The notes under the pieces: generated by a model
What the model was told of the DNA's origin: nothing
Seen by the model: the letters and a program-made list of their open reading frames with translations, nothing else
Databases searched by the model: none
Source: Aquiluna sp.
GTDB taxonomy: Bacteria; Actinomycetota; Actinomycetes; Actinomycetales; Microbacteriaceae
Length of the DNA stretch: 64,000 nt
Reading direction: 5' to 3'
Assembly (NCBI GenBank): GCA_028822985.1
Contig: JAPKCK010000008.1
Coordinates: forward strand, 112 to 64,111
Program-made: the position numbers and the translations under genes
In this document: positions 50,367 through 62,992 of the stretch, in pieces
Layout: each line of letters starts with the position of its first letter
Position numbering within the stretch: position 1 is the stretch's first letter

Positions 50367-50442
50367 TGTGACAAGGAGTTTAGTGTTCGCGAGATGAAAA
50401 ATATGCGTAACAACTCTTGACATAGTGCGTATATTGGAACAG

Positions 50443-51912
50443 ATGGCCAATTCCAAGGATTACCCAGAAGATCCACTCGAACGACTGCTTGATAAAGAGT
50501 CGGACGAAGAATTTGGTGCACCCGAATATAGAGAGCATCTAGCCGATTCTTTGACCCCAGCGGTTTTGAAGGATTGGTCGGCATCAGACTTTGCCAGCAT
50601 CTACGTTCGGTTCCGTCCCCACCTTGAACGGCATGCTCGTCGCTACCTTGTAAACCCATCCCAGGTTGAAGAGGTAGTTCAGGACGCATTTTTGTATTTG
50701 ATGACAACACTTCCGGAACTAGATTCCGAAGTTGGGGTCCTAAAGTTTTTGAAGTGGAAGACCAGGCTTTTGTGTTTGGATGTCATCCGCATCAACTCGC
50801 GCGTGAGCATTGCGCCACTGGATGATCAGCCGGAAATAGCTGCAAACAGTCCGGAGATGTCTCTGGAAATGGAGCGAGCAGATGACGCAGCCATTGTTTC
50901 GATGGCTCTTGCAAAGCTTCAGCCGCGACACCGCGAAGTATTGATCGCCTCGATTTACGAAGAAAAATCAACGGACGCCGTTGCGGAACAACTTGGTTTG
51001 AGCGAGAACGCCACCAGGCAGCTGCTGTTCCGAGCACGATCTGCATTCAAGAAGGCTCTCATTGGCGAGGTAGAGACCGCCGGTATGTCAGCTGGGCAAA
51101 TTTTGTCGGTTGCTGCTAGAAAAGCGGCAGCCGAGTCTGGCAAGTACGTTGCTGCTGCAGGAGCGTTTCTGTTGGTAATGGCAGTTTCGCTTGGAGTGTT
51201 ACCGAACATAAACCAGACCACCACCAATCAGATTGCGAGCGCACCTTCTGAAAGCGCCGAGGCTTTATCTCCAAGTACAACGGGTGAGGCAAGTGAAACA
51301 GAATCAGTCGAGCCCCCAGCCATAGCCGCAGGCGCTGCGCCTGCCGAGCTTCCGGTTGAATCAACAGATGCAATCGACGTTGCCTCCACTCAGACGGTGA
51401 GCGAAACAACGACTCAAGGTCCAGCCCGCGTCCCAAATGCTGCCGAGGCGAACACGGTTGTAGCAAGTGAACCGGAACCAATTTTTGACGAGGCGTCTGT
51501 GGCAACAATTTTGGCTACCAATGTTTCTCAGGCCGGTTACTACACAAACTCTTACGCTTCCTCTGACTTCCTTTCCGCAGGCTTCCGCGGTAGTTCAGTT
51601 GAGATTTTCGGTGGCACCGGCATCTCTGCGTTTTTGGATATTGATTTTGCAAACAGGACAGTTTTCAATTCTGTTTATCAAATGTGGGTTGATGGAAAGC
51701 GATACTACGCAGTCTCTGAAATCTCCTCGGTTACGACCAGCCCAATTGGCGACGGTTACGAAATTGTCTTGAGGGCAAGCGATTTCTGGGTGGTCGATGA
51801 CAAGGGAAACGTGTTCGACCAGTCCCCGCTGAGCAATGCTATTTCAACCGTGAAGCTGAGCTTGGATTCCAAAGGAAACCCGGTCAAAGCCTCAATGACG
51901 GTTTCTCGATAA
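50443..51912 (+). CDS. ECF sigma factor with a C-terminal TM helix and extracytoplasmic domain
   Basis: Region 2 EEVVQDAFLYL; region 4 LQPRHREVL..AVAEQLGLSENATRQLLFRAR; TM YVAAAGAFLLVMAVSLGVLP; Ser/Thr/Ala/Pro/Glu linker; beta-rich C-terminus. Confidence 0.8.
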   Translation: MANSKDYPEDPLERLLDKESDEEFGAPEYREHLADSLTPAVLKDWSASDFASIYVRFRPHLERHARRYLVNPSQVEEVVQDAFLYLMTTLPELDSEVGVLKFLKWKTRLLCLDVIRINSRVSIAPLDDQPEIAANSPEMSLEMERADDAAIVSMALAKLQPRHREVLIASIYEEKSTDAVAEQLGLSENATRQLLFRARSAFKKALIGEVETAGMSAGQILSVAARKAAAESGKYVAAAGAFLLVMAVSLGVLPNINQTTTNQIASAPSESAEALSPSTTGEASETESVEPPAIAAGAAPAELPVESTDAIDVASTQTVSETTTQGPARVPNAAEANTVVASEPEPIFDEASVATILATNVSQAGYYTNSYASSDFLSAGFRGSSVEIFGGTGISAFLDIDFANRTVFNSVYQMWVDGKRYYAVSEISSVTTSPIGDGYEIVLRASDFWVVDDKGNVFDQSPLSNAISTVKLSLDSKGNPVKASMTVSR

Positions 51913-51914
51913 AG

Positions 51915-52562
51915 CTACTGAGCTATTCCGTATAGCCGGTCTCCGGCGTCTCCTAGGCCCGGCACGATGTAGCCGCGCTCATCCAGTTTCTCATCGAGTG
52001 CTCCGAGGACTACTTCAACTTCACGATCAGGCCACTTAGCTAGTAGGTGTGCTCTCACGTTTTCGACACCCTCGGGTGCACCGAGGAGACAGACGCAGGT
52101 CGCAGAGACTGCTCCGCGCTCGAAGATATAATCAATGGAGTCATTTAGCGTGCCCCCGGTGGCAAGCATCGGGTCGATTATGAAAACCTGGCGGTTTTCT
52201 AGGTCATCTGGCAGACGATTGGCGTAAGTGTAGGGCTCAAGAGTTTCCTCGTTGCGCTTGATCCCGAGAAAGCCAACCTCAGCACTCGGCAGCAACTTAA
52301 CCATTCCTTCGAGCATGCCTAGGCCCGCTCGAAGAACAGGCACGATGAGTGGCTTGGGGTTGGAGATTTTCACTCCGGTGGTTTTTTGCACTGGAGTCTC
52401 AATCTCAACCTCTTGAACTCGGATGTCTCTCGTGGCCTCGTAGGCAAGGAGAGTCACGAGTTCTTCGACCAACTGTCGGAACTGAGGGCTCGGCGTGCGC
52501 TTATCTCTCAGCACGGTGAGCTTGTGAGTAATCAATGGGTGATTCGCTACATGAAGTCGCAT
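51915..52562 (-). CDS. upp: Uracil phosphoribosyltransferase
   Basis: [44 protein letters not shown]. Confidence 0.96.
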
Positions 52563-52575
52563 AGGCTCAAGACTA
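52562..52575. promoter_or_regulatory. Back-to-back leaderless -10 elements for upp and tadA
   Basis: TAGGCT (+, 52562) is 7 nt before the tadA ATG; TAGTCT (-, 52575-52570) is 7 nt before the upp ATG; only 12 bp separate the start codons. Confidence 0.65.
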
Positions 52576-53018
52576 TGGAGTTTGAAGCTTTGATGCACCT
52601 TGCACTTGAACAAGCCAAGCTTTCCGGAGACGAAGTCCCGGTCGGTGCTGTGCTAGTGGATGGCAATCGCAACGTTGTCGCGGTCGCTCATAATCTGAGG
52701 GAGCAGCTGAAGGACCCAACCTCGCACGCCGAAATTGAGGTTATTCGAACTGCCGCAAAGAAGTTGAACTCTTGGCGGCTAGATGACTGCACGCTCATCG
52801 TCACGCTTGAGCCGTGCGTGATGTGTGCCGGTGCAATCGTGGCGGCCAGAATTCCAAGGGTTGTCTTCGGGGCATGGGATGAGCGCGTTGGGGCGGCGGG
52901 CTCTATCTACGATGTCCTTCGCGACAGCAGGCTTGGCAATCCGGTTGAGGTGATTCCTGAAGTGTTGGCCGATGAGTGCTCCAAAGTCCTAAAAGAATTT
53001 TTCGAAGCTAGGCGCTAG
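52575..53018 (+). CDS. tadA: tRNA adenosine(34) deaminase
   Basis: [26 protein letters not shown]. Confidence 0.93.
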
Positions 53019-53097
53019 GCGAAAACTTTTTTTGTTTTGCTCTCACGTTATTTTTCAAGCTTCGATCCATGGCGCGAGTGTTGCTAAGCTTTCCCAC

Positions 53098-53187
53098 GGT
53101 GACGTGTCCGAGCGGCCGAAGGTGCAACTCTCGAAAAGTTGTGTGGGTGAAAGTCCACCGTGGGTTCAAATCCCACCGTCACCGCCA
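53098..53187 (+). tRNA. tRNA-Ser(CGA)
   Basis: GGTGACG acceptor stem pairs with CGTCACC, then G-CCA; anticodon arm CAACT-CTCGAAA-AGTTG; long variable arm; GGTTCAAATCC T-loop. Confidence 0.97.
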
Positions 53188-53267
53188 TGTTTGCTAGAAG
53201 AATAATTAGCGACAACCCCAAGCGCCTGCGGCATTTGCTGCCAATGCCTATCTAGGCTCTTGTTGAA

Positions 53268-54008
53268 ATGATAAGACTTGAAGAAATCACCAAGACCTAC
53301 CGAGGTGCCGGTGAGCCAGCACTTCGCGAGGTATCTCTAGACATACAGCGTGGCGAGTTCGTGTTTTTGGTCGGGGCTTCCGGGTCTGGCAAGTCATCGC
53401 TATTGCGCATGATGCTTCGCGAAGAAAAACCTGACAGCGGCAACGTCCTGGTTTTGGGGGAGAACCTGTTTAGAATTCCGGCGAGACGAGTGCCGCAATT
53501 TAGGCGCCAGCTCGGGGTTGTCTTCCAGGACTTCAGGCTGCTCACAAATAAAACTGTTTATCAAAACATCGCCTTTGCGCTGCAAGTGATCGGAAAGCCA
53601 AAGGCGTTTATCGAAACTGCAGTTCCGGATGTTCTTCGTCTAGTCGGCCTTGATCATAAATCTAACTCCTTGCCTTCGGCGCTATCCGGAGGCGAGCAAC
53701 AGCGAGTTGCAATTGCCAGAGCGGTCGTGAATCGCCCCGAGGTGTTACTGGCAGATGAGCCAACTGGAAACCTAGACCCGGTATCAAGTACTGAGATCAT
53801 GAACTTACTCGAACGTATTAATCTCTCCGGCACCACAATCGTCATGGCTACCCATGACAGGAATATCGTTGACCGGATGCAAAAGCGAGTGGTGGAGATA
53901 AGCGCCGGTGTAATAATCCGAGACGCTCAGACTGCAAGCTATAAGGAAATTCCGTCTGAGCCGATGCCGATAATCCCGGAGCCCAAGGACTTCGAGGAAA
54001 AGCTATGA
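53268..54008 (+). CDS. ftsE: Cell division ATP-binding protein FtsE
   Basis: GASGSGKS, GVVFQDFRLL, LSGGEQQRVAIARA, ADEPTGNLDP, MATHD. Confidence 0.95.
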   Translation: MIRLEEITKTYRGAGEPALREVSLDIQRGEFVFLVGASGSGKSSLLRMMLREEKPDSGNVLVLGENLFRIPARRVPQFRRQLGVVFQDFRLLTNKTVYQNIAFALQVIGKPKAFIETAVPDVLRLVGLDHKSNSLPSALSGGEQQRVAIARAVVNRPEVLLADEPTGNLDPVSSTEIMNLLERINLSGTTIVMATHDRNIVDRMQKRVVEISAGVIIRDAQTASYKEIPSEPMPIIPEPKDFEEKL

Positions 54009-54919
54009 AGTTAGGACTAATTCTTTCGGAAATGTGGTCGGGGATTCGCGGCAATTTCTCGATGATCGTGTCAATAATCTTGGTCACTTTTGTATCTCTG
54101 AGCTTTGTCTCGGTTGCAGCATTGCTACAGCTGCAGGTTGGCAACATGAAATATTATTGGTATGACCGGGCTCAAATTGCGATTTATCTATGCTCGGACT
54201 TTTCGCCGGAAGAACAGTGCCCAGCGGGAGTGGCAACGGCAGGTCAAGTTGCTGCCGTGGAGGCATCTCTAAACAGTCAGGCATTGACGCCTCACATTGA
54301 AGCGTTTTACTTCGAATCTCAGCAGGATGCTTTTGACAGGTTCTTGGCCGAATCAGAAGACTTATCCGCAGCTCAGTATCTTTTACCGGAACAGTTGAAC
54401 GAAGCCTTTTGGGTAAACCTAATAAACCCAGATAGGACTGAGTTGATTGTTGAAGCCTTTAATAATCAGCCAGGGGTTGCCGAGGTCAGAGATCAGCGCG
54501 GCTATTTGGACCAAATTATTACCTTTCTAAACATTTCCTCTTTGGCCGTTGGCGGGGTGGCGGCAATAATGCTCTTTAGCGCGGCCCTGTTGACCACAAC
54601 CACAATTCGGCTCAGTGCCTTCTCCAGAAAGCGAGAAATCGCAATTATGCGTCTGGTCGGTGCTTCCAGCTTGTCAATTCAGCTGCCGTTTATTCTCGAA
54701 GGCCTGTTGGCGGCCCTAGTGGGTGGCGGTCTAGCTATCGCGACGGTGGCCTTTGGGACTCAATACTTCGTGACAGATCTTCTTTCCACGCAGCTGGCGT
54801 TTACTAGCTTCGTTGGCATCGACGATGTCTTTACGATTGCGCCTTTCGTGCTGGGAGTCGGTGCGCTGATTGCAACCGTGGCTGCTGCGGTGTCGACTTA
54901 TCGGCACGTCAGAGTCTAA
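54005..54919 (+). CDS. ftsX: Cell division permease FtsX
   Basis: 4-TM layout with a large extracellular loop; TIRLSAFSRKREIAIMRLVGAS...PFILEG. Confidence 0.93.
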   Translation: MKLGLILSEMWSGIRGNFSMIVSIILVTFVSLSFVSVAALLQLQVGNMKYYWYDRAQIAIYLCSDFSPEEQCPAGVATAGQVAAVEASLNSQALTPHIEAFYFESQQDAFDRFLAESEDLSAAQYLLPEQLNEAFWVNLINPDRTELIVEAFNNQPGVAEVRDQRGYLDQIITFLNISSLAVGGVAAIMLFSAALLTTTTIRLSAFSRKREIAIMRLVGASSLSIQLPFILEGLLAALVGGGLAIATVAFGTQYFVTDLLSTQLAFTSFVGIDDVFTIAPFVLGVGALIATVAAAVSTYRHVRV

Positions 54920-55154: not shown

Positions 55155-58100
55155 TTGGCTGCTGCGAAAAACGCTAGTTCCATCAAGTCCGCAAAAAACT
55201 CTCGCGAAGCAATGCGACCAACATTCGCAAAGCACCCAGACCCGATAGAGATACCAGATCTACTCTCCCTTCAGACGGAGAGCTTTGATCAGTTGGTGGG
55301 CAACCCTGCATGGCGTGAAATCGCCGGCAAGGATGCTAGGACCGGTCTGGATGAGGTCTTTGAAGAAATCAGCCCAATCGAGGACAGCTCAAACGCTGCT
55401 CAAGATGCAAAAATGGGGCTTTCTTTCTCAGAGCCAATGCTGTTCGACCCGACCTACACTCCTGATCAGTGCAAGGAAAAGGGCAAGAGCTACACCAAGC
55501 CGCTTTACATCAAAGCTGAGTTCACCAACTATCTGACCGGTGAAATCAAGAGCCAGACCGTGTTTATGGGTGACTTCCCAGTTATGACCGGCAAGGGCAC
55601 ATTCATTATTAACGGAACCGAGCGAGTCGTTGTTTCTCAGCTAGTTCGTTCCCCGGGTGTTTATTTCTCGGTGTCGACTAACACCACTGGAAACCTTGAC
55701 GTTCGAAACAACAAGGCCCAGATCATTCCGAGCCGTGGTTCCTACCTAGAGTTTTTGACCGAGTGGGTCAAGGATGAGCGTAAGCCCGCTGCCAGGTTCG
55801 GAAAGCCGATCTTGCAGGTGCAGGTTGACCGCAAGACCAAGGTTTCAGCAACTATCTTTTTGAAGGCTCTTGGTTTTTCCAAGGAAGAAATTCGCGCTGA
55901 GTTCGCAGACATCAAGGCTGCAGCGCTTGCAAGCCCGCTGGGTATCAGCTACGACGATGACATCATCGAGCGCACCCTTGAATATGACGAGTCAAAGGTT
56001 TTCCCAAACGGGATCCTTACCAAGGAAGACGCTCTTCGCGAGGTCTACCGCAAAGTACGTGGCGAAGCTGCCGGTGCTGAAGTTGCCGAGGCTTGGTTGC
56101 GTTCAACATACTTCGAGGGCAAGCGTTACAACTTGGCTCGCGTGGGTCGTCACAAGCTAAACCGCAAGCTCAACATTAATCAGGCCGCAGACACTACGAC
56201 CTTGACCAGAGACGACATCGTTGCAACGTTGAAGTATTTGTTGTTGTTCGACCTAACTCTGGCCAATAACGTTTCTTCAAACACTCAGCGCGCTGAGTTC
56301 AATGTGAAGATGGCGGGCAAGAAGGTCAACCTAGTTGTTAGCTCGGACGACATCGACGATTTCTCTAACCGTCGTATTCGTTCGGTTGGTGAGTTGATTC
56401 AGAACCAGGTTCGAATCGGTCTGAGCCGCATGGAGCGTGTTGTTCGCGAACGTATGTCCACGCAGGACATTGAAGCGATCACCCCGCAGACACTTATTAA
56501 CCTGAGACCAGTTGTTTCGGCAATCAAGGAATTCTTTGGTGCCAGCCAGCTTTCGCAGTTTATGGATCAGAACAATCCATTGGCCGGTCTTGCTCACAAG
56601 CGTCGTTTGTCAGCACTTGGACCGGGAGGTATCGCTCGTGAGCGTGCCCAAATGGAGGTCCGCGACGTGCACCCTTCTCACTACGGACGTATGTGTCCTG
56701 TTGAGACTCCAGAAGGCCCGAACATTGGTCTTATCGGATCACTAACCGCTTTCAGCAAGATCAACGCTTTCGGCTTCATTGAGACTCCTTACCGTTTGGT
56801 GAAGGACAACAAGGTCGGCAAGAAGGTCGAGTACCTTGATGCCTCTGCCGAAGAGGGCAAGGTTATTGCCGGAGCTGATACTCCTTTGAATGCCGATGGC
56901 ACTTTGGTCGGCCCACGTGCATTTGCCCGTTTCCGTGGAGACATGGTTGAGGTTGCAGCCGAGGACGTCGATTACATCGACATTTCCCCTCGACAGTTGG
57001 CCAGCGTTTCAACTTCGTTGATTCCATTCCTTGAGCACGATGATTCGTCACGTGCTTTGATGGGTGCGAACATGCAACGTCAAGCTGTTCCTCTTCTAGA
57101 GGCAGAAAGCCCATTTGTTGGAACCGGCATGGAGCGCCTAGCGGCGATTGACTCCGGTGCGGTTCTGACCAATGAGCTAGCCGGTGTTGTAGAAGAGATC
57201 GATGCTGACCAGATAGTTGTGATGAACGATGATGGATCACGCTCGAACTACACTCTTCGCAAGTTTGACCGTTCAAACCAGGGCACCGCAATCAACCAGA
57301 AGGCGATTATCGAAATCGGCCAGCGAGTTGAAAAGGGCGATGTTTTGGCTGACGGCCCATCCACTGAGAATGGTGAGCTAGCGCTTGGAAAGAACCTGCT
57401 CGTGGCATTCATGCCGTGGGAAGGTTACAACTTCGAGGACGCTATCATCCTGAGCCAGGAGCTAGTAAAGAACGACACCCTCTCTTCAATCCACATCGAA
57501 GAGTACGAAGTCGATGCCAGAGACACCAAGCTTGGTGCCGAGGAAATTACTTCTGACCTTCCAAACATCTCAGTTGAAGCTCTTGCTCAGCTTGATGCGA
57601 GTGGAATTATCCGAATCGGAGCCGAAGTTCGTCCGGGAGACATCCTGGTTGGAAAAGTCACGCCTAAGGGTGAGACTGAGCTTTCGGCCGAGGAGCGACT
57701 ATTGCGTGCGATCTTCAACGAGAAATCGCGTGAAGTTCGCGACACATCTTTGAAGGTGCCTCACGGTGAGCAGGGAACCATCATTGGCGTCAAGGTATTT
57801 GACGCTGAAGAGGGCGACGAGCTCGGTGCTGGCGTGAACAAGCGTGTAGTTGTTTACATCGCCCAGAAGCGAAAGATCACCGAGGGTGACAAGCTTGCCG
57901 GTCGACACGGCAACAAGGGTGTTATCGCTAAAATCTTGCCCGTCGAGGATATGCCGTTCATGGAAGATGGAACTCCGGTTGACATCGTATTGAACCCACT
58001 GGGTATTCCTGGTCGAATGAACTTCGGTCAGGTTCTGGAATCACACCTTGGTTGGGTTTGCCGCCAGGGCTGGGACGTTTCCGGAGTCGCTAAGTGGGCA

Positions 58101-58778
58101 GATGAGATGTCGAAGGACCTCTTCAGCGCTCCAGCTGGAACTAAGGTTGCCACGCCGGTATTCGATGGCGCAACCAAGAACCAGGTTGCGGGTCTTCTAG
58201 ATCACACCTTGCCAAACCGAGACGGCAACCGCCTAATCGATGGCAGTGGTAAAGCCAACCTATTCGATGGCCGCTCTGGCGAGCCTTACCCAATGCCAAT
58301 TGCTGTTGGCGTGAAGTACATGTTGAAGCTGCACCACTTGGTTGATGACAAGATTCACGCTCGTTCCACCGGTCCTTACTCCATGATTACTCAGCAGCCA
58401 CTCGGTGGTAAGGCTCAGTTCGGTGGACAGCGATTCGGTGAGATGGAAGTTTGGGCACTGCAGGCTTACGGCGCAGCGCACACTCTCCAGGAGCTACTGA
58501 CTATCAAGTCAGACGACATCGCCGGCCGTGTTCGAACCTACGAGGCAATCGTCAAGGGCGAGAACATTCAGGCACCTGGTATCCCCGAGTCCTTCCGAGT
58601 ACTCGCAAAGGAAATGCAGTCACTGGGCCTAAACGTCGAGGTAATCGACAACAAGGGTCAAGTAGTTGTTTTGAAGGACGAGGCGTTTGAAAACGACCGC
58701 GCCGCTGAGGAACTAGGCATCAACCTGAGCCGCAACGAGCAGTTGTCATCTGACTCCGACTTCAACACCTACCAGTAA
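55155..58778 (+). CDS. rpoB: RNA polymerase beta subunit
   Basis: [66 protein letters not shown]. Confidence 0.99.
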
Positions 58779-58813: not shown

Positions 58814-61800
58814 ATGTCTGTGAAAGTAGAAAACTTCAGTGCTCTTCGGGTAGGTCTTGCCACCTCGGAGGAAATCCGCTCTTGGTCATCAGGTGAAGTC
58901 AAGAAGCCTGAGACCATCAACTACCGAACTCTAAAGCCGGAAAAAGACGGCCTATTCTGCGAGAAGATCTTTGGTCCAACCAAGGACTGGGAGTGCTCTT
59001 GCGGTAAGTACAAGCGAGTTCGCTTCAAGGGAATTGTCTGCGAGCGTTGTGGCGTAGAGGTAACAAAGTCCTCGGTTCGTCGTGAGCGCATGGGTCACAT
59101 CGAGCTAGCCGCTCCTGTAACTCACATCTGGTATTTCAAGGGTGTTCCATCTCGTCTGGGTTACCTACTGAACATGGCACCAAAAGACCTAGAGAAGATC
59201 ATTTACTTTGCCGCTTACCGAGTCATGGATATTGACCACGAGATGCGAACCGCAGAGTATGACCTAGTCCGCGATGAGTACGTAACCCGTATTCGCGCGC
59301 TGATCGACGCTCGTGAAGAAGAGTTTGAGGCCGCAGCCGGCGAAGAGATCGCTGCAATGCGCGAACTTGGCTTGGTAATGCAGATCTCCAACAAGTTCTG
59401 GGAGGCACCTCGTTGGATCGAGAAGCAGTTCTCCAAGAGCCTTGAGCAGCTAATCGACTCAGAGGAAAAGGATGCGGATGCATTCTGGTCCGTCCGAACC
59501 TTGGCTCAAATGTCTGACGAAGAGCAGGACGACACCGTTGTTCGCACCACCGATGAGGCCAAGAAAATCAAGAAATTGATTGCCGACATCAAGAAGAAGG
59601 TGGACAAGATTGTCCGCGAGTACGCCCGTCTAGAGCGTCCTGCAAACCTTCACAAGGAGCAGTTGGCATGGCGTATGTTCCTAACGGCGGAAGTCGGCCA
59701 GCTAATGCCAAACGACGTGGTCTTTGACTACTTCGACTACTACTTCTCCGACTACGTAATAACTTCAATTGGTGCCGAGGCAGTCTTGCAGGTATTGGCT
59801 GCATTCGATCTTGAGGGCGCAGCTGCAGAATTGCGCGCCGAGATTGCAACCACCAAGGGCTCTAAGCAGACTCAGGCCATCAAGCGCCTGAAGGTTGTAA
59901 ACAGCTTCGCTCAGTCCGGTACTCCTCCAACCTCCATGGTGCTATCGGTTCTTCCGGTACTACCTCCGGAGATTCGCCCAATGGTTCAGCTAGACGGTGG
60001 CCGCTTCGCGACCAGCGATCTAAACGACCTTTACCGCAGGGTGATCAACCGTAACAACCGTCTAAAGCGATTCGTTGATCTAGGCGCGGTTCCAAAGACC
60101 ATCTTGAACAACGAGAAGCGCATGCTTCAGGAAGCCGTTGACGCACTGTTTGACAACGGTCGCCGCGGTCGCGCCGTTACCGGAACCGGTAACCGTGCAC
60201 TGAAGTCACTTTCTGACCTTCTAAAGGGTAAGCAGGGTCGTTTCCGTCAGAACCTTCTGGGTAAGCGAGTTGACTACTCCGGTCGTTCCGTAATTGTGGT
60301 TGGACCGCAGTTGAAGCTTCACCAGTGTGGACTTCCAAAGCTGATGGCCCTTGAGCTTTTCAAGCCATATGTAATGAAGCGTCTTGTTGACATGGGCCTT
60401 GCCCAGAACATCAAGAGCGCTAAGCGCATGGTTGAAAGAAGCCGACCACAGGTCTGGGGAGTTCTCGAGGAAGTTATTCGTGAGCGTCCAGTGCTTCTAA
60501 ACCGTGCACCTACCTTGCACCGTTTGGGAATTCAGGCATTCGAGCCACAACTGGTTGAGGGTAAGGCTATTCAGCTTCACCCGCTTGTTTGTGCGGCCTT
60601 CAACGCTGACTTCGATGGTGACCAGATGGCTGTTCACCTTCCTCTGTCAGTTGAGGCGCAGGCTGAGGCCCGCATCTTGATGCTTGCTTCGAACAACATT
60701 TTGAAGCCATCGGACGGACGTCCGGTTGCTACACCTACCCAGGACATGATCATTGGGCTCTTCCACCTAACCGCTGAAGTTCCTGGCGGCACCGGTGAGG
60801 GCCTAGCCTTCACCTCAATGGGAGAGGCCCAGATGGCCTTCGACATTGGCGGGCTTGATCTAGGCGCCAAGGTTCGAATTCGTATCGAGGGTGAATTGCG
60901 CGAGACCACATTTGGTCGTGCGCTATTCAACGAGACGCTTCCTCTTTCATACCCATTCGTGGAGATGCAAGTCGGCAAAAAAGAACTAGGCCAGATCGTA
61001 TCTGATTTGGTCGAGCTTTTCAGTCGCACCGAGGTTGCACTTTCCCTTGACGCTTTGAAGGATGCTGGATTCCACTGGGCAACCCGTGCCGGTGTTTCGA
61101 TGGCTATCTCTGATGCCAACTTCGACCCGAAGGGCACCTTCGATAAGGAGCGTGCTTCCAGGATCGTCAAGGCCGAGAAAGCTCACACCAAGATTCAGGA
61201 AGCGTTCGACAATGGTCTGAAGTCAGACCTTGAGCGTCGTGATGAGCTTGGAGCGCTTTGGTTCAAGGAGACCGCCGAAATCGAGCAGCTACTGCGCGAA
61301 TCGATCCCGACTGACAACGCAATCTACAAGATGGTCACATCTGGTGCCAGGGGTAACTGGCTTCAGATTCGTTCCATCATGGGTATGCGTGGACCGGTTG
61401 CAACTTCATCAGGTGATTTTGCTCCGATGCCAGTGAAGGGTAACTACCTATTGGGTCTAACCCCTCACGAGTACTTCATTAACGCAACTGGAGCTCGTAA
61501 GGGTAACGCTGACACCGCCATGAAGACGGCTGCAGCGGGTTACCTAACTCGTCGTCTGGTCGACGTTGCACAGGATGTCATCATTCAGATCGAGGACTGT
61601 GGAACCACTAAGGGTCTGGACAAGGACCTTCTGGATCAAGAGCAGGTTGAGCTTTCAATCGTCGGTCGTACGAATCTTGTTGACATCAAGCAGGGAAAGA
61701 CAGTTCTTCTTCCTGCCGGTGTGAACATTGATCACTCTGCGGCAAGACGCATCAAGGAAGCCGGAGTAGAAACAATCACTGTTCGCTCCGTTCTAACTTG

Positions 61801-62992
61801 TGAGGCTGAAAGCGGTATCTGCGCGGCTTGCTACGGTGTTTCATTGGCCACAAACCAAAAGGTAACTATTGGTGAGGCAATTGGAATCATCGCCGCTCAG
61901 TCAATCGGTGAGCCTGGTACTCAGCTAACAATGCGTACCTTCCACACCGGTGGAGCGGCATCGAGCGCCAAGAAGCAGACCATTCTGAAGTCAATTGGTG
62001 GCCAGAAGGTTCGTGTTGAGCGTCTGATTTCCTATGACATCACGCAGGGTCTGAACGGTGTTACTGACCTTCTAGAAGCGCGTGTTGGATGGCGTCAAGC
62101 GGGCAAGGTTGCTGTTATGGCATTCTGGGCCGGTCAGGTGGACATCGTTGAAAAGGTTTCCCTAACCGGAACCAAGAGCTTCGAGGTCTACGTTCGCCCA
62201 CAAGGTGAAAAGGCCGAGAAGGAAGCCGAAGCGCTTGCGACTCAGTACAGCTTCAGCCGTACTGCATCGAAGACCTTCAAGAAGCTAAGTCCTTACCTTC
62301 CGATCACAATTGTTGCCTCAGTTGGCGACCTAGTGGTTCAAAAGGGTGACATGGTTGACGCTGGAGATTACCTGGTTGATGGAACTCCAATTCCACACGA
62401 GGTTTTGATGATTCGTGGTTCGCGTGAAGCGGCTGCGGAAATCATCCGAGGTGTTCAGGCCATTTACGGCTCACAGGGCGTTCCGCTGCACGACAAGCAC
62501 CTTGAGGTAATTGTCCGTCAGATGCTGAACAAGGTAACCGTAATTGACTCTGGAGACACCAACATGCTTCCGGGTGAGATTATTGATCGCCAGAGCTTTG
62601 CAGGCAAGAACCGTCAAGCAGTTGCGCAGGGCAATCGTCCCGCCAGTGCTCGTCAAGAGGTAATGGGTATGACCCGTGCTTCACTTGCTGCTCAGTCTTG
62701 GCTATCGGCGGCATCCTTCCAGGAGACCACTCGAGTCCTAACCCAAGCGGCGCTAGATCGCCGTGAGGACAGGCTTGTGGGTCTAAAGGAAAACGTGATC
62801 ATCGGAAAGCTAATTCCAGCTGGAACTGGACTATTGACTTACCGCAACTTCGAAGTAGATGGAACAGAAGAGGCGAAAGCCGAGCGCTATCCAAACCGAA
62901 TCTGGTCGGACCAGGGTTACGACCCAACCGATCTAGACTCGCAGGAGCTCAGCCTGAGTGTTTCTGATCCATTTGCAATCGATGAGAAGTAA
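58814..62992 (+). CDS. rpoC: RNA polymerase beta' subunit
   Basis: Zn-finger Cys residues, NADFDGD catalytic motif, [32 protein letters not shown]. Confidence 0.99.

What the first reader, a model, noticed from the sequence alone, without database searches (positions are those of the whole stretch)
61382..61560. Remodelled F-loop and bridge helix
Canonical GMRGL..NPKG..YREGL..EYFI(S/A)[13 protein letters not shown](R/K)TA(D/N)SGY reads [41 protein letters not shown]. That is S775N, T776A, H777T, L783N, L788M, N792A and S793A in E. coli numbering (from memory). These elements control catalysis and pausing and form the streptolydigin and CBR/AAP pockets. Together with the fork-loop and trigger-helix changes, every wall of the streptolydigin site is altered, suggesting co-evolution of the active centre or intrinsic inhibitor resistance.
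Basis: partly seen in the sequence, partly recalled or inferred. Interest (0 to 1): 0.65.

Follow-up and report, generated by a model that had tools for sequence, protein, structure and literature searches.

The report
Clade-wide remodelled RNA polymerase bridge helix
The RNA polymerase of the tiny aquatic bacteria Aquiluna and Rhodoluna carries a fixed, strongly conserved rewrite of some of the enzyme's most invariant moving parts; this probably changes how it steps along DNA and should blunt streptolydigin-type inhibitors, though neither effect has been measured.

Summary

The altered F-loop and bridge helix are not private to this genome. All 120 closest database homologues and 93 loci from Aquiluna, Rhodoluna and unnamed relatives (the "Luna" clade) carry them. 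Within the clade dN/dS is about 0.03.

Six other Microbacteriaceae genera and 14 further Actinobacteria have the canonical sequence, so this is a shared derived trait of the Luna clade.

Of 709 RpoC sites conserved in canonical Actinobacteria, 50 are fixed to another residue in Luna. Fourteen of these lie in the F-loop and bridge helix (odds ratio 6.9, p=1e-6).

The published partner elements changed too: beta fork loop 2, D-loop II, the link region, and the trigger loop, which gained a 22-residue insertion.

Overall divergence of RpoB, RpoC and S12 is only about 1.35-fold raised, so the concentration of changes is specific to the active centre.

Best reading: a co-evolved, selectively maintained remodelling of the active centre. 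Streptolydigin insensitivity (D792A, G544Q) is a predicted consequence, not a shown one.

Some single changes are ordinary: S793A is common, L783N is the norm in Clostridium, and three alanine substitutions at these sites are silent in E. coli.

The parts
58814..62992 (+). rpoC, RNA polymerase beta' subunit (1392 aa), the housekeeping copy in the order rpoB-rpoC-rpsL
   Evidence: ORF and translation. Homologues at 74-94% identity are named beta' and carry Pfam PF04997, PF00623, PF04983, PF05000 and PF04998. The [12 protein letters not shown] catalytic motif is intact. S12 lies downstream.
61382..61462 (+). F-loop (E. coli beta' 742-768): [27 protein letters not shown]. Carries L746P, P750S, I755A, R757M, R764L and E765L, among others.
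   Evidence: Numbering.
61463..61573 (+). Bridge helix (E. coli beta' 769-805): [37 protein letters not shown]. Carries T776A, H777T, L783N, L788M, D792A and S793A.
   Evidence: The core [20 protein letters not shown] is present in all 93 Luna loci recovered (one position varies); dN/dS over the 59 codons is 0.03.
61352..61381 (+). Segment just upstream of the F-loop: [11 protein letters not shown]739 (96% conserved in bacteria) is Ser here and Asn in canonical Microbacteriaceae. R738 is retained.
61901..62143 (+). Trigger loop and trigger helices. The N-terminal arm is canonical ([10 protein letters not shown]). The C-terminal arm is changed: GLPRV to GLNGV, ELFEAR to DLLEAR, plus four extra residues (GWRQ).
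   Evidence: Alignment of 12 Luna and 20 canonical RpoC sequences. Seven of 38 conserved sites are changed.
61970..62035 (+). Clade-specific 22-residue insertion at the tip of the trigger loop: [22 protein letters not shown]
   Evidence: Present in every Luna sequence that covers it and absent from all 20 canonical Actinobacteria. AlphaFold2 predicts a beta-hairpin, but at pLDDT about 25-32, which is unreliable.
55155..58778 (+). rpoB, RNA polymerase beta subunit (ORF of 1207 aa from a TTG; the true start was not determined)
   Evidence: About 1275 bits to M. smegmatis beta over 800 aa.
56619..56672 (+). Beta fork loop 2 / STL1 (E. coli 534-551): [18 protein letters not shown], with L538I, S539A, G544Q and L545M
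   Evidence: STL1 boundaries from PMC3957892.
56685..56720 (+). Beta D-loop II / STL2 segment: [12 protein letters not shown], with I561V
57030..57074 (+). Beta link region: [15 protein letters not shown], with A676S and N677S. N677 is a site of high-level salinamide resistance.
   Evidence: Salinamide-resistance sites from PMC4029172. The E. coli numbers here rest on motif position (HDDANR), which I aligned by eye.

Best explanation
This is the single housekeeping RNA polymerase of an Aquiluna bacterium. On the stem of the Aquiluna/Rhodoluna ('Luna') clade of Microbacteriaceae, the mobile modules around the catalytic centre were rewritten together, and the new state has been held almost unchanged ever since.

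What was rewritten:
- the beta' F-loop;
- the N-terminal hinge and centre of the bridge helix;
- the trigger loop, which also gained a 22-residue insertion;
- on the beta side, fork loop 2, D-loop II and the link region.

Shown here: the changes are real, clade-wide, absent from other Microbacteriaceae, concentrated in these elements, and under strong purifying selection.

Inferred from published contact maps and mutant phenotypes: both sides of three interfaces changed, which is the signature of compensatory co-evolution. The pairs are bridge helix 773-780 with fork loop 2 and D-loop II; bridge helix 779-783 with the link region and F-loop (the 'bridge-helix cap'); and bridge helix 785-793 with the trigger loop.

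[quoted passage not shown] That would change translocation, pausing and catalytic rates.

A predicted by-product is loss of streptolydigin binding, through D792A (which removes the Mg2+-bridging aspartate) and G544Q in STL1. Responses to salinamide and CBR-type ligands are probably altered as well.
For: Clade-wide:
- All 120 best homologues (74-94% identity; named Aquiluna or Rhodoluna where a name is given) carry [21 protein letters not shown].
- About 65 GTDB species loci do too.
- In total 93 loci with 71 distinct DNA versions carry the motif; mean dS 0.76, dN 0.022, ratio 0.03.

Absent elsewhere:
- Agromyces, Homoserinibacter, Gryllotalpicola, Microbacterium, Leucobacter and Microcella, plus 14 other Actinobacteria, are canonical.
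- The exhaustive representative search found only Luna-type or fully canonical forms among the 150 best hits.

Vertical descent: Luna RpoC is closest to Microbacteriaceae (62% against 58% identity). It shares their GNWLQ(I/V)R motif and the Y763 state.

Concentration: 14 of 49 conserved sites changed in the F-loop and bridge helix, against 36 of 660 elsewhere (OR 6.9, p=1.3e-6). With the trigger loop added, 21 of 87 (p=2.8e-8).

Partner elements in beta changed. The trigger-loop insertion is clade-specific.

Not a general RNAP acceleration: the excess divergence is about 1.35-1.4-fold in RpoC, RpoB and S12 alike.

Literature:
- Bridge helix 773-780 contacts fork loop 2 and 785-790 contacts the trigger loop (PMC3077646).
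- Mutations at the bridge helix-beta interface speed catalysis, slow translocation and reduce pausing (PMC3959191).
- D792 is critical for streptolydigin binding, and D792G confers resistance (PMC3957892).
- Definition of the bridge-helix cap and the salinamide-resistance sites beta' 775, 783 and beta 677 (PMC4029172).
Against: - No biochemical or structural data exist for this enzyme. All functional consequences are inferred.
- Contacts are taken from papers on E. coli and Thermus, not from a model of this protein. My AlphaFold2 fragment model was poor (mean pLDDT 47).
- L783A, N792A and S793A are silent in E. coli, and H777A is mild. L783N is wild type in Clostridium. S793A is common. Part of the 'remodelling' may therefore be nearly neutral.
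- The lineage evolves faster genome-wide and has shifted to about 51% G+C.
- No intermediate forms were found, so the order of the substitutions, and hence true compensation, cannot be shown.
- I did not directly exclude a second, canonical rpoC elsewhere in these genomes. That rests on genome size (about 1.3-1.4 Mb), synteny, and Hahn et al. 2014 reporting one RpoB sequence for Rhodoluna.
Confidence: 0.6

Rival explanations
1. Direct selection for resistance. The changes were fixed because an ancestor of the clade was exposed to natural RNA polymerase inhibitors that bind the bridge-helix cap or the streptolydigin pocket (tetramic acids such as streptolydigin or tirandamycin, or salinamide-like depsipeptides). 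Resistance would then be the selected function rather than a by-product.
For: Changed sites coincide with known resistance positions. For streptolydigin: beta' 792, beta 544/545 in STL1 and beta 561 in STL2. For salinamide: beta' 775, 783 and beta 677. For CBR: beta' 750. All walls of the streptolydigin site differ.
Against: Single substitutions are enough for resistance. Here 23 of 59 residues in this stretch changed, along with a trigger-loop insertion and several beta elements, which is far more than resistance requires. The three high-level salinamide sites R738, A779 and G782 are unchanged. The residues introduced differ from the selected resistance alleles. The organisms are free-living planktonic bacteria with very small genomes, and nothing here shows exposure to such compounds. 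No assay has been done.
Confidence: 0.15
2. Nearly neutral, compensated drift. A fast-evolving, genome-streamlined lineage shifting to lower G+C accumulated tolerated substitutions, plus compensations, in the active centre, with no net change in enzyme behaviour.
For: Genome-wide acceleration of about 1.35-fold in RpoB, RpoC and S12. G+C is about 51%, against the 51 to 68 mol% rpoB G+C range that Hahn et al. report across the compared strains. Alanine substitutions at 783, 792 and 793 are silent in E. coli. L783N and S793A occur naturally elsewhere.
Against: Changes are about 7-fold enriched in the F-loop and bridge helix relative to other equally conserved sites. Ten of the 23 differences need two or more nucleotide changes. 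Sites such as H777, Q739 and E765 take residues seen in 0-1% of bacterial representatives. The new state has since been frozen (dN/dS 0.03). A conserved 22-residue insertion in the catalytic trigger loop is unlikely to be without effect.
Confidence: 0.2
3. Compensation for a missing transcription factor, as in Gre-less cyanobacteria, where lineage-specific bridge-helix and trigger-loop residues raise intrinsic RNA cleavage.
For: Precedent: cyanobacterial residues F773V, N792D, A940V and G1136Q raise hydrolysis 3- to 11-fold and partly suppress a greA greB deletion (PMC7026648). Luna genomes are streamlined.
Against: greA, with both Pfam domains, is annotated in at least three Rhodoluna genomes assembled from metagenomes, in the supplementary table of PMC12422013. 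Loss of other factors was not examined.
Confidence: 0.03
4. Artefact, pseudogene or divergent paralogue rather than the working enzyme.
For: None found beyond the unusual sequence itself.
Against: The 1392-codon frame is intact, and so are all catalytic motifs. The matched 467-aa segment is identical in two isolate genomes. The motif was recovered in 93 assemblies. Purifying selection is strong. Synteny is the standard rpoB-rpoC-rpsL.
Confidence: 0.02

Closest known systems
Canonical actinobacterial RNA polymerase beta' (solved for Mycobacterium and Streptomyces; sequences of other Microbacteriaceae)
   Same: [quoted passage not shown] By identity it is closest to Microbacteriaceae.
   Different: 23 of 59 residues in the F-loop and bridge helix differ from all six canonical Microbacteriaceae genera. 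There is a 22-residue trigger-loop insertion and further clade-specific insertions of 35, 12, 27, 5 and 4 residues.
E. coli mutants at the bridge helix-beta interface (beta' F773V, P750L, H777A; beta V550A, P560S/T563I), the CBR703 target
   Same: The Luna changes fall at or next to the same positions (P750S, H777T, T776A; beta I561V and fork loop 2). In E. coli such changes speed catalysis, slow forward translocation and reduce pausing.
   Different: Those are single laboratory substitutions, often deleterious. Here many changes are fixed together in nature. F773 itself is retained. No kinetics have been measured.
Streptolydigin-resistant RNA polymerases (beta' D792G in B. subtilis; beta 543-546 in E. 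coli)
   Same: Asp/Asn 792 is replaced (by Ala) and beta 544/545 are replaced (Q, M), which are the two classic resistance loci.
   Different: The residues differ from the selected alleles, and resistance is untested.
Salinamide target, the 'bridge-helix cap' (N-terminal hinge of the bridge helix, F-loop, link region)
   Same: All three components of the cap are altered in Luna, including resistance positions beta' 775, 783 and beta 677.
   Different: The high-level resistance residues R738, A779 and G782 are unchanged. The effect on binding is unknown.
Cyanobacterial RNA polymerase (lineage-specific bridge-helix and trigger-loop residues plus the SI3 trigger-loop insertion)
   Same: A precedent for a whole lineage carrying its own residues in the bridge helix and trigger loop with functional consequences, together with an insertion in the trigger loop (PMC10895346 title and abstract).
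   Different: Different residues. SI3 is a large multi-domain insertion, whereas this one is 22 residues. Cyanobacteria lack Gre factors, whereas Rhodoluna has GreA.
Clostridium (sensu stricto) RpoC and a few other lineages with natural L783N
   Same: ARKGNADTA is their wild-type bridge-helix sequence.
   Different: The rest of their F-loop and bridge helix is canonical (GMRGLMA.PSGK...FREGL...YFISTHG...ALKTADSGY).
Archaeal and eukaryotic largest subunit (yeast Rpb1 802-848, [35 protein letters not shown])
   Same: Aquiluna [17 protein letters not shown] matches Rpb1 at the derived positions 764 (L), 768 (T), 769 (P) and 776 (A). The Rpb1 sequence was verified.
   Different: This is a convergence at three or four positions only. 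P769 is confined to the Aquiluna branch. Everything else is bacterial.

Membership tests
Bacterial RNA polymerase beta' subunit (RpoC) | The five RNA polymerase Rpb1 Pfam domains in order | tested here: met
   Homologues at 74-94% identity over the full length carry PF04997, PF00623, PF04983, PF05000 and PF04998 (precomputed). The window protein itself was not scanned separately.
Bacterial RNA polymerase beta' subunit (RpoC) | Catalytic NADFDGD motif, bridge-helix core (GARKG...[16 protein letters not shown]) and trigger-loop N-terminal arm ([13 protein letters not shown]) | tested here: met
   All are present in the translation and aligned without gaps to solved beta' chains.
Bacterial RNA polymerase beta' subunit (RpoC) | Gene order rpoB-rpoC | tested here: met
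   rpoB 55155-58778, rpoC 58814-62992, rpsL downstream.
Microbacteriaceae RpoC by vertical descent | Closer to Microbacteriaceae than to other Actinobacteria, with shared family-specific residues | tested here: met
   Mean identity is 62.0% to six Microbacteriaceae genera, 58.6% to other Micrococcales and 57.7% to outgroups. Shared GNWLQ(I/V)R motif and Y763. Hahn et al. place Rhodoluna plus Aquiluna in the family by 16S rRNA and RpoB.
Streptolydigin-resistant RNA polymerase | Substitution of beta' Asp/Asn792 or of beta 543-546 | tested here: met
   D792A and G544Q, L545M. The importance of these sites comes from PMC3957892.
Streptolydigin-resistant RNA polymerase | Measured loss of inhibition by streptolydigin | not testable with these tools
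   Needs enzyme or growth assays.
Salinamide-resistant RNA polymerase | Substitution at a high-level resistance site (beta' R738, A779, G782; beta D675, N677) | tested here: inconclusive
   Beta N677S is present. R738, A779, G782 and D675 are unchanged. The moderate-level sites beta' 775 and 783 are changed. The alleles differ from those selected.
Trigger-loop sequence insertion SI3 (as in E. coli and cyanobacteria) | Insertion between the two trigger helices | tested here: met
   The 22-residue insertion lies between [10 protein letters not shown] and DITQGL.
Trigger-loop sequence insertion SI3 (as in E. coli and cyanobacteria) | A large insertion built of folded domains (SI3 is a large insertion per PMC10895346; about 188 residues in E. 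coli and an SBHM-type fold, from my own knowledge) | tested here: not met
   Only 22 residues. Predicted as a simple hairpin at low confidence. It is therefore not an SI3 member.

The most novel reading that the evidence does not exclude
The Luna-clade enzyme is a naturally re-engineered bacterial RNA polymerase. A new small trigger-loop insertion and a rebuilt bridge-helix cap work together to give a measurably different nucleotide-addition cycle (different translocation bias, pause response or intrinsic cleavage). It is also insensitive to several unrelated classes of active-centre inhibitor. That would make it an evolutionary 'second solution' for the most conserved part of the enzyme.
Probability: 0.3. 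Interest if true: 0.75.

Novelty: new variant of a known kind. Interest (0 to 1): 0.55.

Why it matters
The bridge helix, F-loop and trigger loop are among the most conserved protein segments in biology. They drive every step of RNA synthesis and are the targets of several antibiotic classes.

A culturable, harmless and globally abundant clade has fixed about 14 substitutions at otherwise near-invariant sites of these elements. It has matching changes on the partner surfaces in beta and a new trigger-loop insertion. This is a natural experiment in how the modules are coupled.

It offers a ready-made set of co-varying residues for testing models of bridge-helix hinging and translocation. It also gives a concrete prediction of intrinsic streptolydigin insensitivity.

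For phylogeny, it explains why RpoB and RpoC trees place Rhodoluna and Aquiluna on a long branch outside the rest of the family.

Tried and rejected
1. Gre-loss compensation, on the cyanobacterial precedent. Rejected: greA is annotated in Rhodoluna genomes.

2. RNA-polymerase-specific acceleration. Rejected: RpoC, RpoB and S12 all show about 1.3-1.4-fold excess divergence. What is special is where the changes fall.

3. Uniqueness of L783N. Rejected: a degenerate DNA scan for ARKGNADTA hit Clostridium, some Bacilli and Tenericutes, a Gaiellaceae, a Saccharibacteria and a Moraniibacteriota genome.

4. Using S12 as an anchor to reach rpoC of near relatives. Uninformative: hits were mostly unnamed, and the one contig fetched had no rpoC next to rpsL.

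5. A scan for NYREGL...EYFI to fetch canonical Microbacteriaceae. It returned other Micrococcales and Clostridia only, because Microbacteriaceae read SSYREGL..AEYF. They were obtained instead with an alignment-based scan.

6. Naming the closest representatives through cluster look-up. Almost no names came back.

7. AlphaFold2 on residues 820-1392 with 30 Luna sequences. Mean pLDDT was 47, so I used it only as a weak hint that the trigger-loop insertion is a hairpin.

8. Literature search for any description of this feature. None in the held library. Hahn et al. 2014 only note the odd position of the clade in the RpoB tree.

9. I could not retrieve rpoC of Pontimonas, the closest described genus, so the exact node of origin is not fixed.
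Full report
**What is there**

The window has about 51% G+C throughout. ORF 55155-58778 (+) is rpoB and ORF 58814-62992 (+) is rpoC. ftsE and ftsX lie upstream and rpsL downstream.

A 467-aa stretch of RpoC spanning the finding is 100% identical to Aquiluna sp. Uisw_065 (complete genome) and to 'Candidatus Aquiluna' sp. IMCC13023. The window therefore comes from an Aquiluna genome. Aquiluna belongs to the 'Luna' group of very small planktonic Microbacteriaceae.

The finding (61382-61560) is RpoC residues 857-916: [59 protein letters not shown].

**Checking the observation**

Alignment to solved Streptomyces and Mycobacterium beta' chains is gap-free here. It shows the canonical [54 protein letters not shown].

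The E. coli segment maps to residues 742-806 of full-length E. coli beta'.

I tabulated each site in 145 non-Luna proteins taken from an exhaustive HMMER search of cluster representatives.
- Absent or rare (0-6%): Q739S, L746P, I755A, R764L, E765L, S775N, T776A, H777T, L783N, L788M and D/N792A.
- Not unusual: S793A, where Ala is as frequent as Ser.

**How widely the changes are shared**

All 120 best database homologues (74-94% identity; named Aquiluna or Rhodoluna where a name is given) carry [21 protein letters not shown]. So does every informative locus from about 65 species-level genomes.

In total 93 loci with 71 distinct DNA versions encode the motif. Mean dS is 0.76 and dN is 0.022, so the ratio is 0.03. 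The remodelled sequence is under strong purifying selection.

An alignment-based scan also returned six other Microbacteriaceae genera: Agromyces, Homoserinibacter, Gryllotalpicola, Microbacterium, Leucobacter and Microcella. I used 14 other Actinobacteria from the same scan. All have the canonical bridge helix ([24 protein letters not shown]) and F-loop.

Aquiluna differs from all six of those genera at 23 of the 59 positions. Ten of the 23 need two or more nucleotide changes.

Luna RpoC is nevertheless closest to Microbacteriaceae (62% identity, against 58% to others). It shares family-specific residues with them. This points to vertical descent with change on the stem of the clade, not to transfer.

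Among the 150 best representatives there were only Luna-type or canonical forms, with no intermediates.

**Single changes that are not unique**

A degenerate DNA scan for ARKGNADTA showed that L783N alone is the normal state in Clostridium sensu stricto and occurs in a few other lineages. Asn775 occurs in Gryllotalpicola. In E. coli, L783A, N792A and S793A are silent, H777A is mild, and L788A lowers activity (PMC3077646).

**Where the clade-specific changes fall**

I aligned 12 Luna and 20 canonical RpoC sequences. Of 709 positions that are at least 90% conserved in the canonical set, 50 are fixed to another residue in Luna.
- F-loop and bridge helix (residues 857-920): 14 changed of 49 conserved sites, against 36 of 660 elsewhere (odds ratio 6.9, p=1.3e-6).
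- With the trigger loop added: 21 of 87 (p=2.8e-8).

The trigger loop also carries a 22-residue insertion, [22 protein letters not shown]. It is present in all Luna sequences and absent from all canonical ones. The C-terminal arm of the trigger loop is altered as well: GLPRV to GL(N/T)GV, ELFEAR to DLLEAR, and four extra residues.

In RpoB, 29 of 565 conserved sites are changed. They include:
- fork loop 2: L538I, S539A and G544Q, plus L545M in this genome;
- D-loop II: I561V;
- link region: A676S and N677S.

**Why those elements belong together**

According to the literature, these are the elements that pack against the bridge helix.
- Residues 773-780 face fork loop 2, and 785-790 face the trigger loop.

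Both sides of three interfaces have therefore changed.

**Is RNA polymerase simply evolving fast?**

Measured against outgroups, Luna shows about 1.35-1.4-fold more differences than canonical Microbacteriaceae in RpoC (57.7% against 69.9% identity) and in RpoB (68.6% against 76.7%). S12, compared with other Micrococcales, shows a similar excess.

The acceleration is lineage-wide and modest. The concentration of changes in the active centre is the unusual part.

**Mechanism**

Shown: a clade-wide, selectively maintained rewrite focused on the active centre.

Inferred:
- The changes are compensatory co-evolution across the bridge helix-beta and bridge helix-trigger loop interfaces.
- In E. coli, substitutions at this interface (P750L, F773V, V550A, P560S/T563I) speed catalysis, slow forward translocation and reduce pausing, and H777A changes the CBR703 response 250-fold (PMC3959191). 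A shifted translocation and pausing regime is therefore the most likely functional outcome.
- Streptolydigin binds STL1 (beta 538-552), STL2 (beta 557-576), bridge helix 769-795 and the trigger loop. It needs beta' Asp792 to bridge a Mg2+ ion, and D792G confers strong resistance (PMC3957892). Luna has Ala792, Gln544 and Met545, so loss of streptolydigin inhibition is a firm prediction, but an untested one.
- For salinamide, three resistance positions are changed (beta' 775, 783; beta 677). The strongest ones (R738, A779, G782) are not.

**Rival explanations**

Direct selection by antibiotics is possible. It is not economical, because single substitutions suffice for resistance and far more has changed.

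Nearly neutral compensated drift fits the tolerated alanine substitutions and the faster clock. It does not fit the 7-fold enrichment, the multi-nucleotide replacements, the residues never seen elsewhere, or the later freezing of the sequence.

Compensation for loss of Gre factors, as in cyanobacteria (PMC7026648), is contradicted by annotated greA in Rhodoluna genomes.

An artefact or a paralogue is excluded for practical purposes. I did not, however, scan a whole Luna genome for a second rpoC.

**Structure attempt**

AlphaFold2 on residues 820-1392 with 30 Luna sequences gave mean pLDDT 47. The bridge helix is drawn as a helix and the insertion as a beta-hairpin, but at confidence too low to rely on.

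**Novelty**

Searches of the held literature found no description of this feature. Hahn et al. 2014 noted only that Rhodoluna and Aquiluna do not nest within the family in the RpoB tree, which the present data explain.

I rate it a new variant of a known kind. It is an ordinary housekeeping RNA polymerase by membership, with an unusual clade-specific active centre.

Noticed in passing
window 61970-62035 (RpoC aa 1053-1074): A 22-residue insertion at the tip of the trigger loop ([22 protein letters not shown]). It is conserved across the Aquiluna/Rhodoluna clade and absent from 20 canonical Actinobacteria. Two strand-like halves flank a GG pair. AlphaFold2 draws a hairpin, but at very low confidence.
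   Followed up: partly
window 59399-59647 and 62228-62308 (RpoC aa 196-278 and 1139-1165): Further clade-specific insertions in RpoC: 35, 4 and 12 residues inside the actinobacterial N-terminal insertion region, and 27 residues downstream of the trigger loop. Also 5 residues at aa 773-778. Together with the trigger-loop insertions, these account for the protein being about 90 residues longer than in other Microbacteriaceae.
   Followed up: partly
window 56457-56594 (RpoB aa 435-480): Clade-fixed changes in and near the rifampicin-resistance region of RpoB, for example GASQLSQF for G(T/S)SQLSQF and LAHKRR for LTHKRR (about E. coli 508 and 525). These are not the classic resistance residues. H526, S531 and D516 are unchanged.
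   Followed up: no
L153 (Rhodoluna sp. EUL_089), RpoC downstream of the trigger loop: One Rhodoluna genome has an extra insertion of about 190 residues just after the C-terminal trigger helix. No other Luna sequence has it. It could be a genuine lineage-specific domain or an assembly problem.
   Followed up: no
window 61439-61471 versus yeast Rpb1 802-812: The Aquiluna F-loop/bridge-helix junction [12 protein letters not shown] resembles the archaeal and eukaryotic [13 protein letters not shown] more than the bacterial S(N/S)(F/Y)REGL(S/T)V.EYF. P769 is restricted to the Aquiluna branch, so this is a limited convergence.
   Followed up: partly
window 50425-51912: A 495-aa ORF with sigma-70 regions 2 and 4 in its first 210 residues, followed by a long C-terminal extension with no Pfam match. 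This may be an ECF-type sigma factor fused to another domain.
   Followed up: no
window 52386-54919: rpoB is preceded by a deaminase gene of the TadA/CDA type and by ftsE-ftsX, not by rplJ-rplL. The ribosomal protein genes usually found near rpoB are not within the 11 kb upstream.
   Followed up: no
L011 (CAMAQN010000027.1): A metagenome-assembled genome labelled 'Auritidibacter sp. Marseille-P8566' carries a Luna-type rpoC that is 89% identical to the window. The label is probably a taxonomic misassignment.
   Followed up: no
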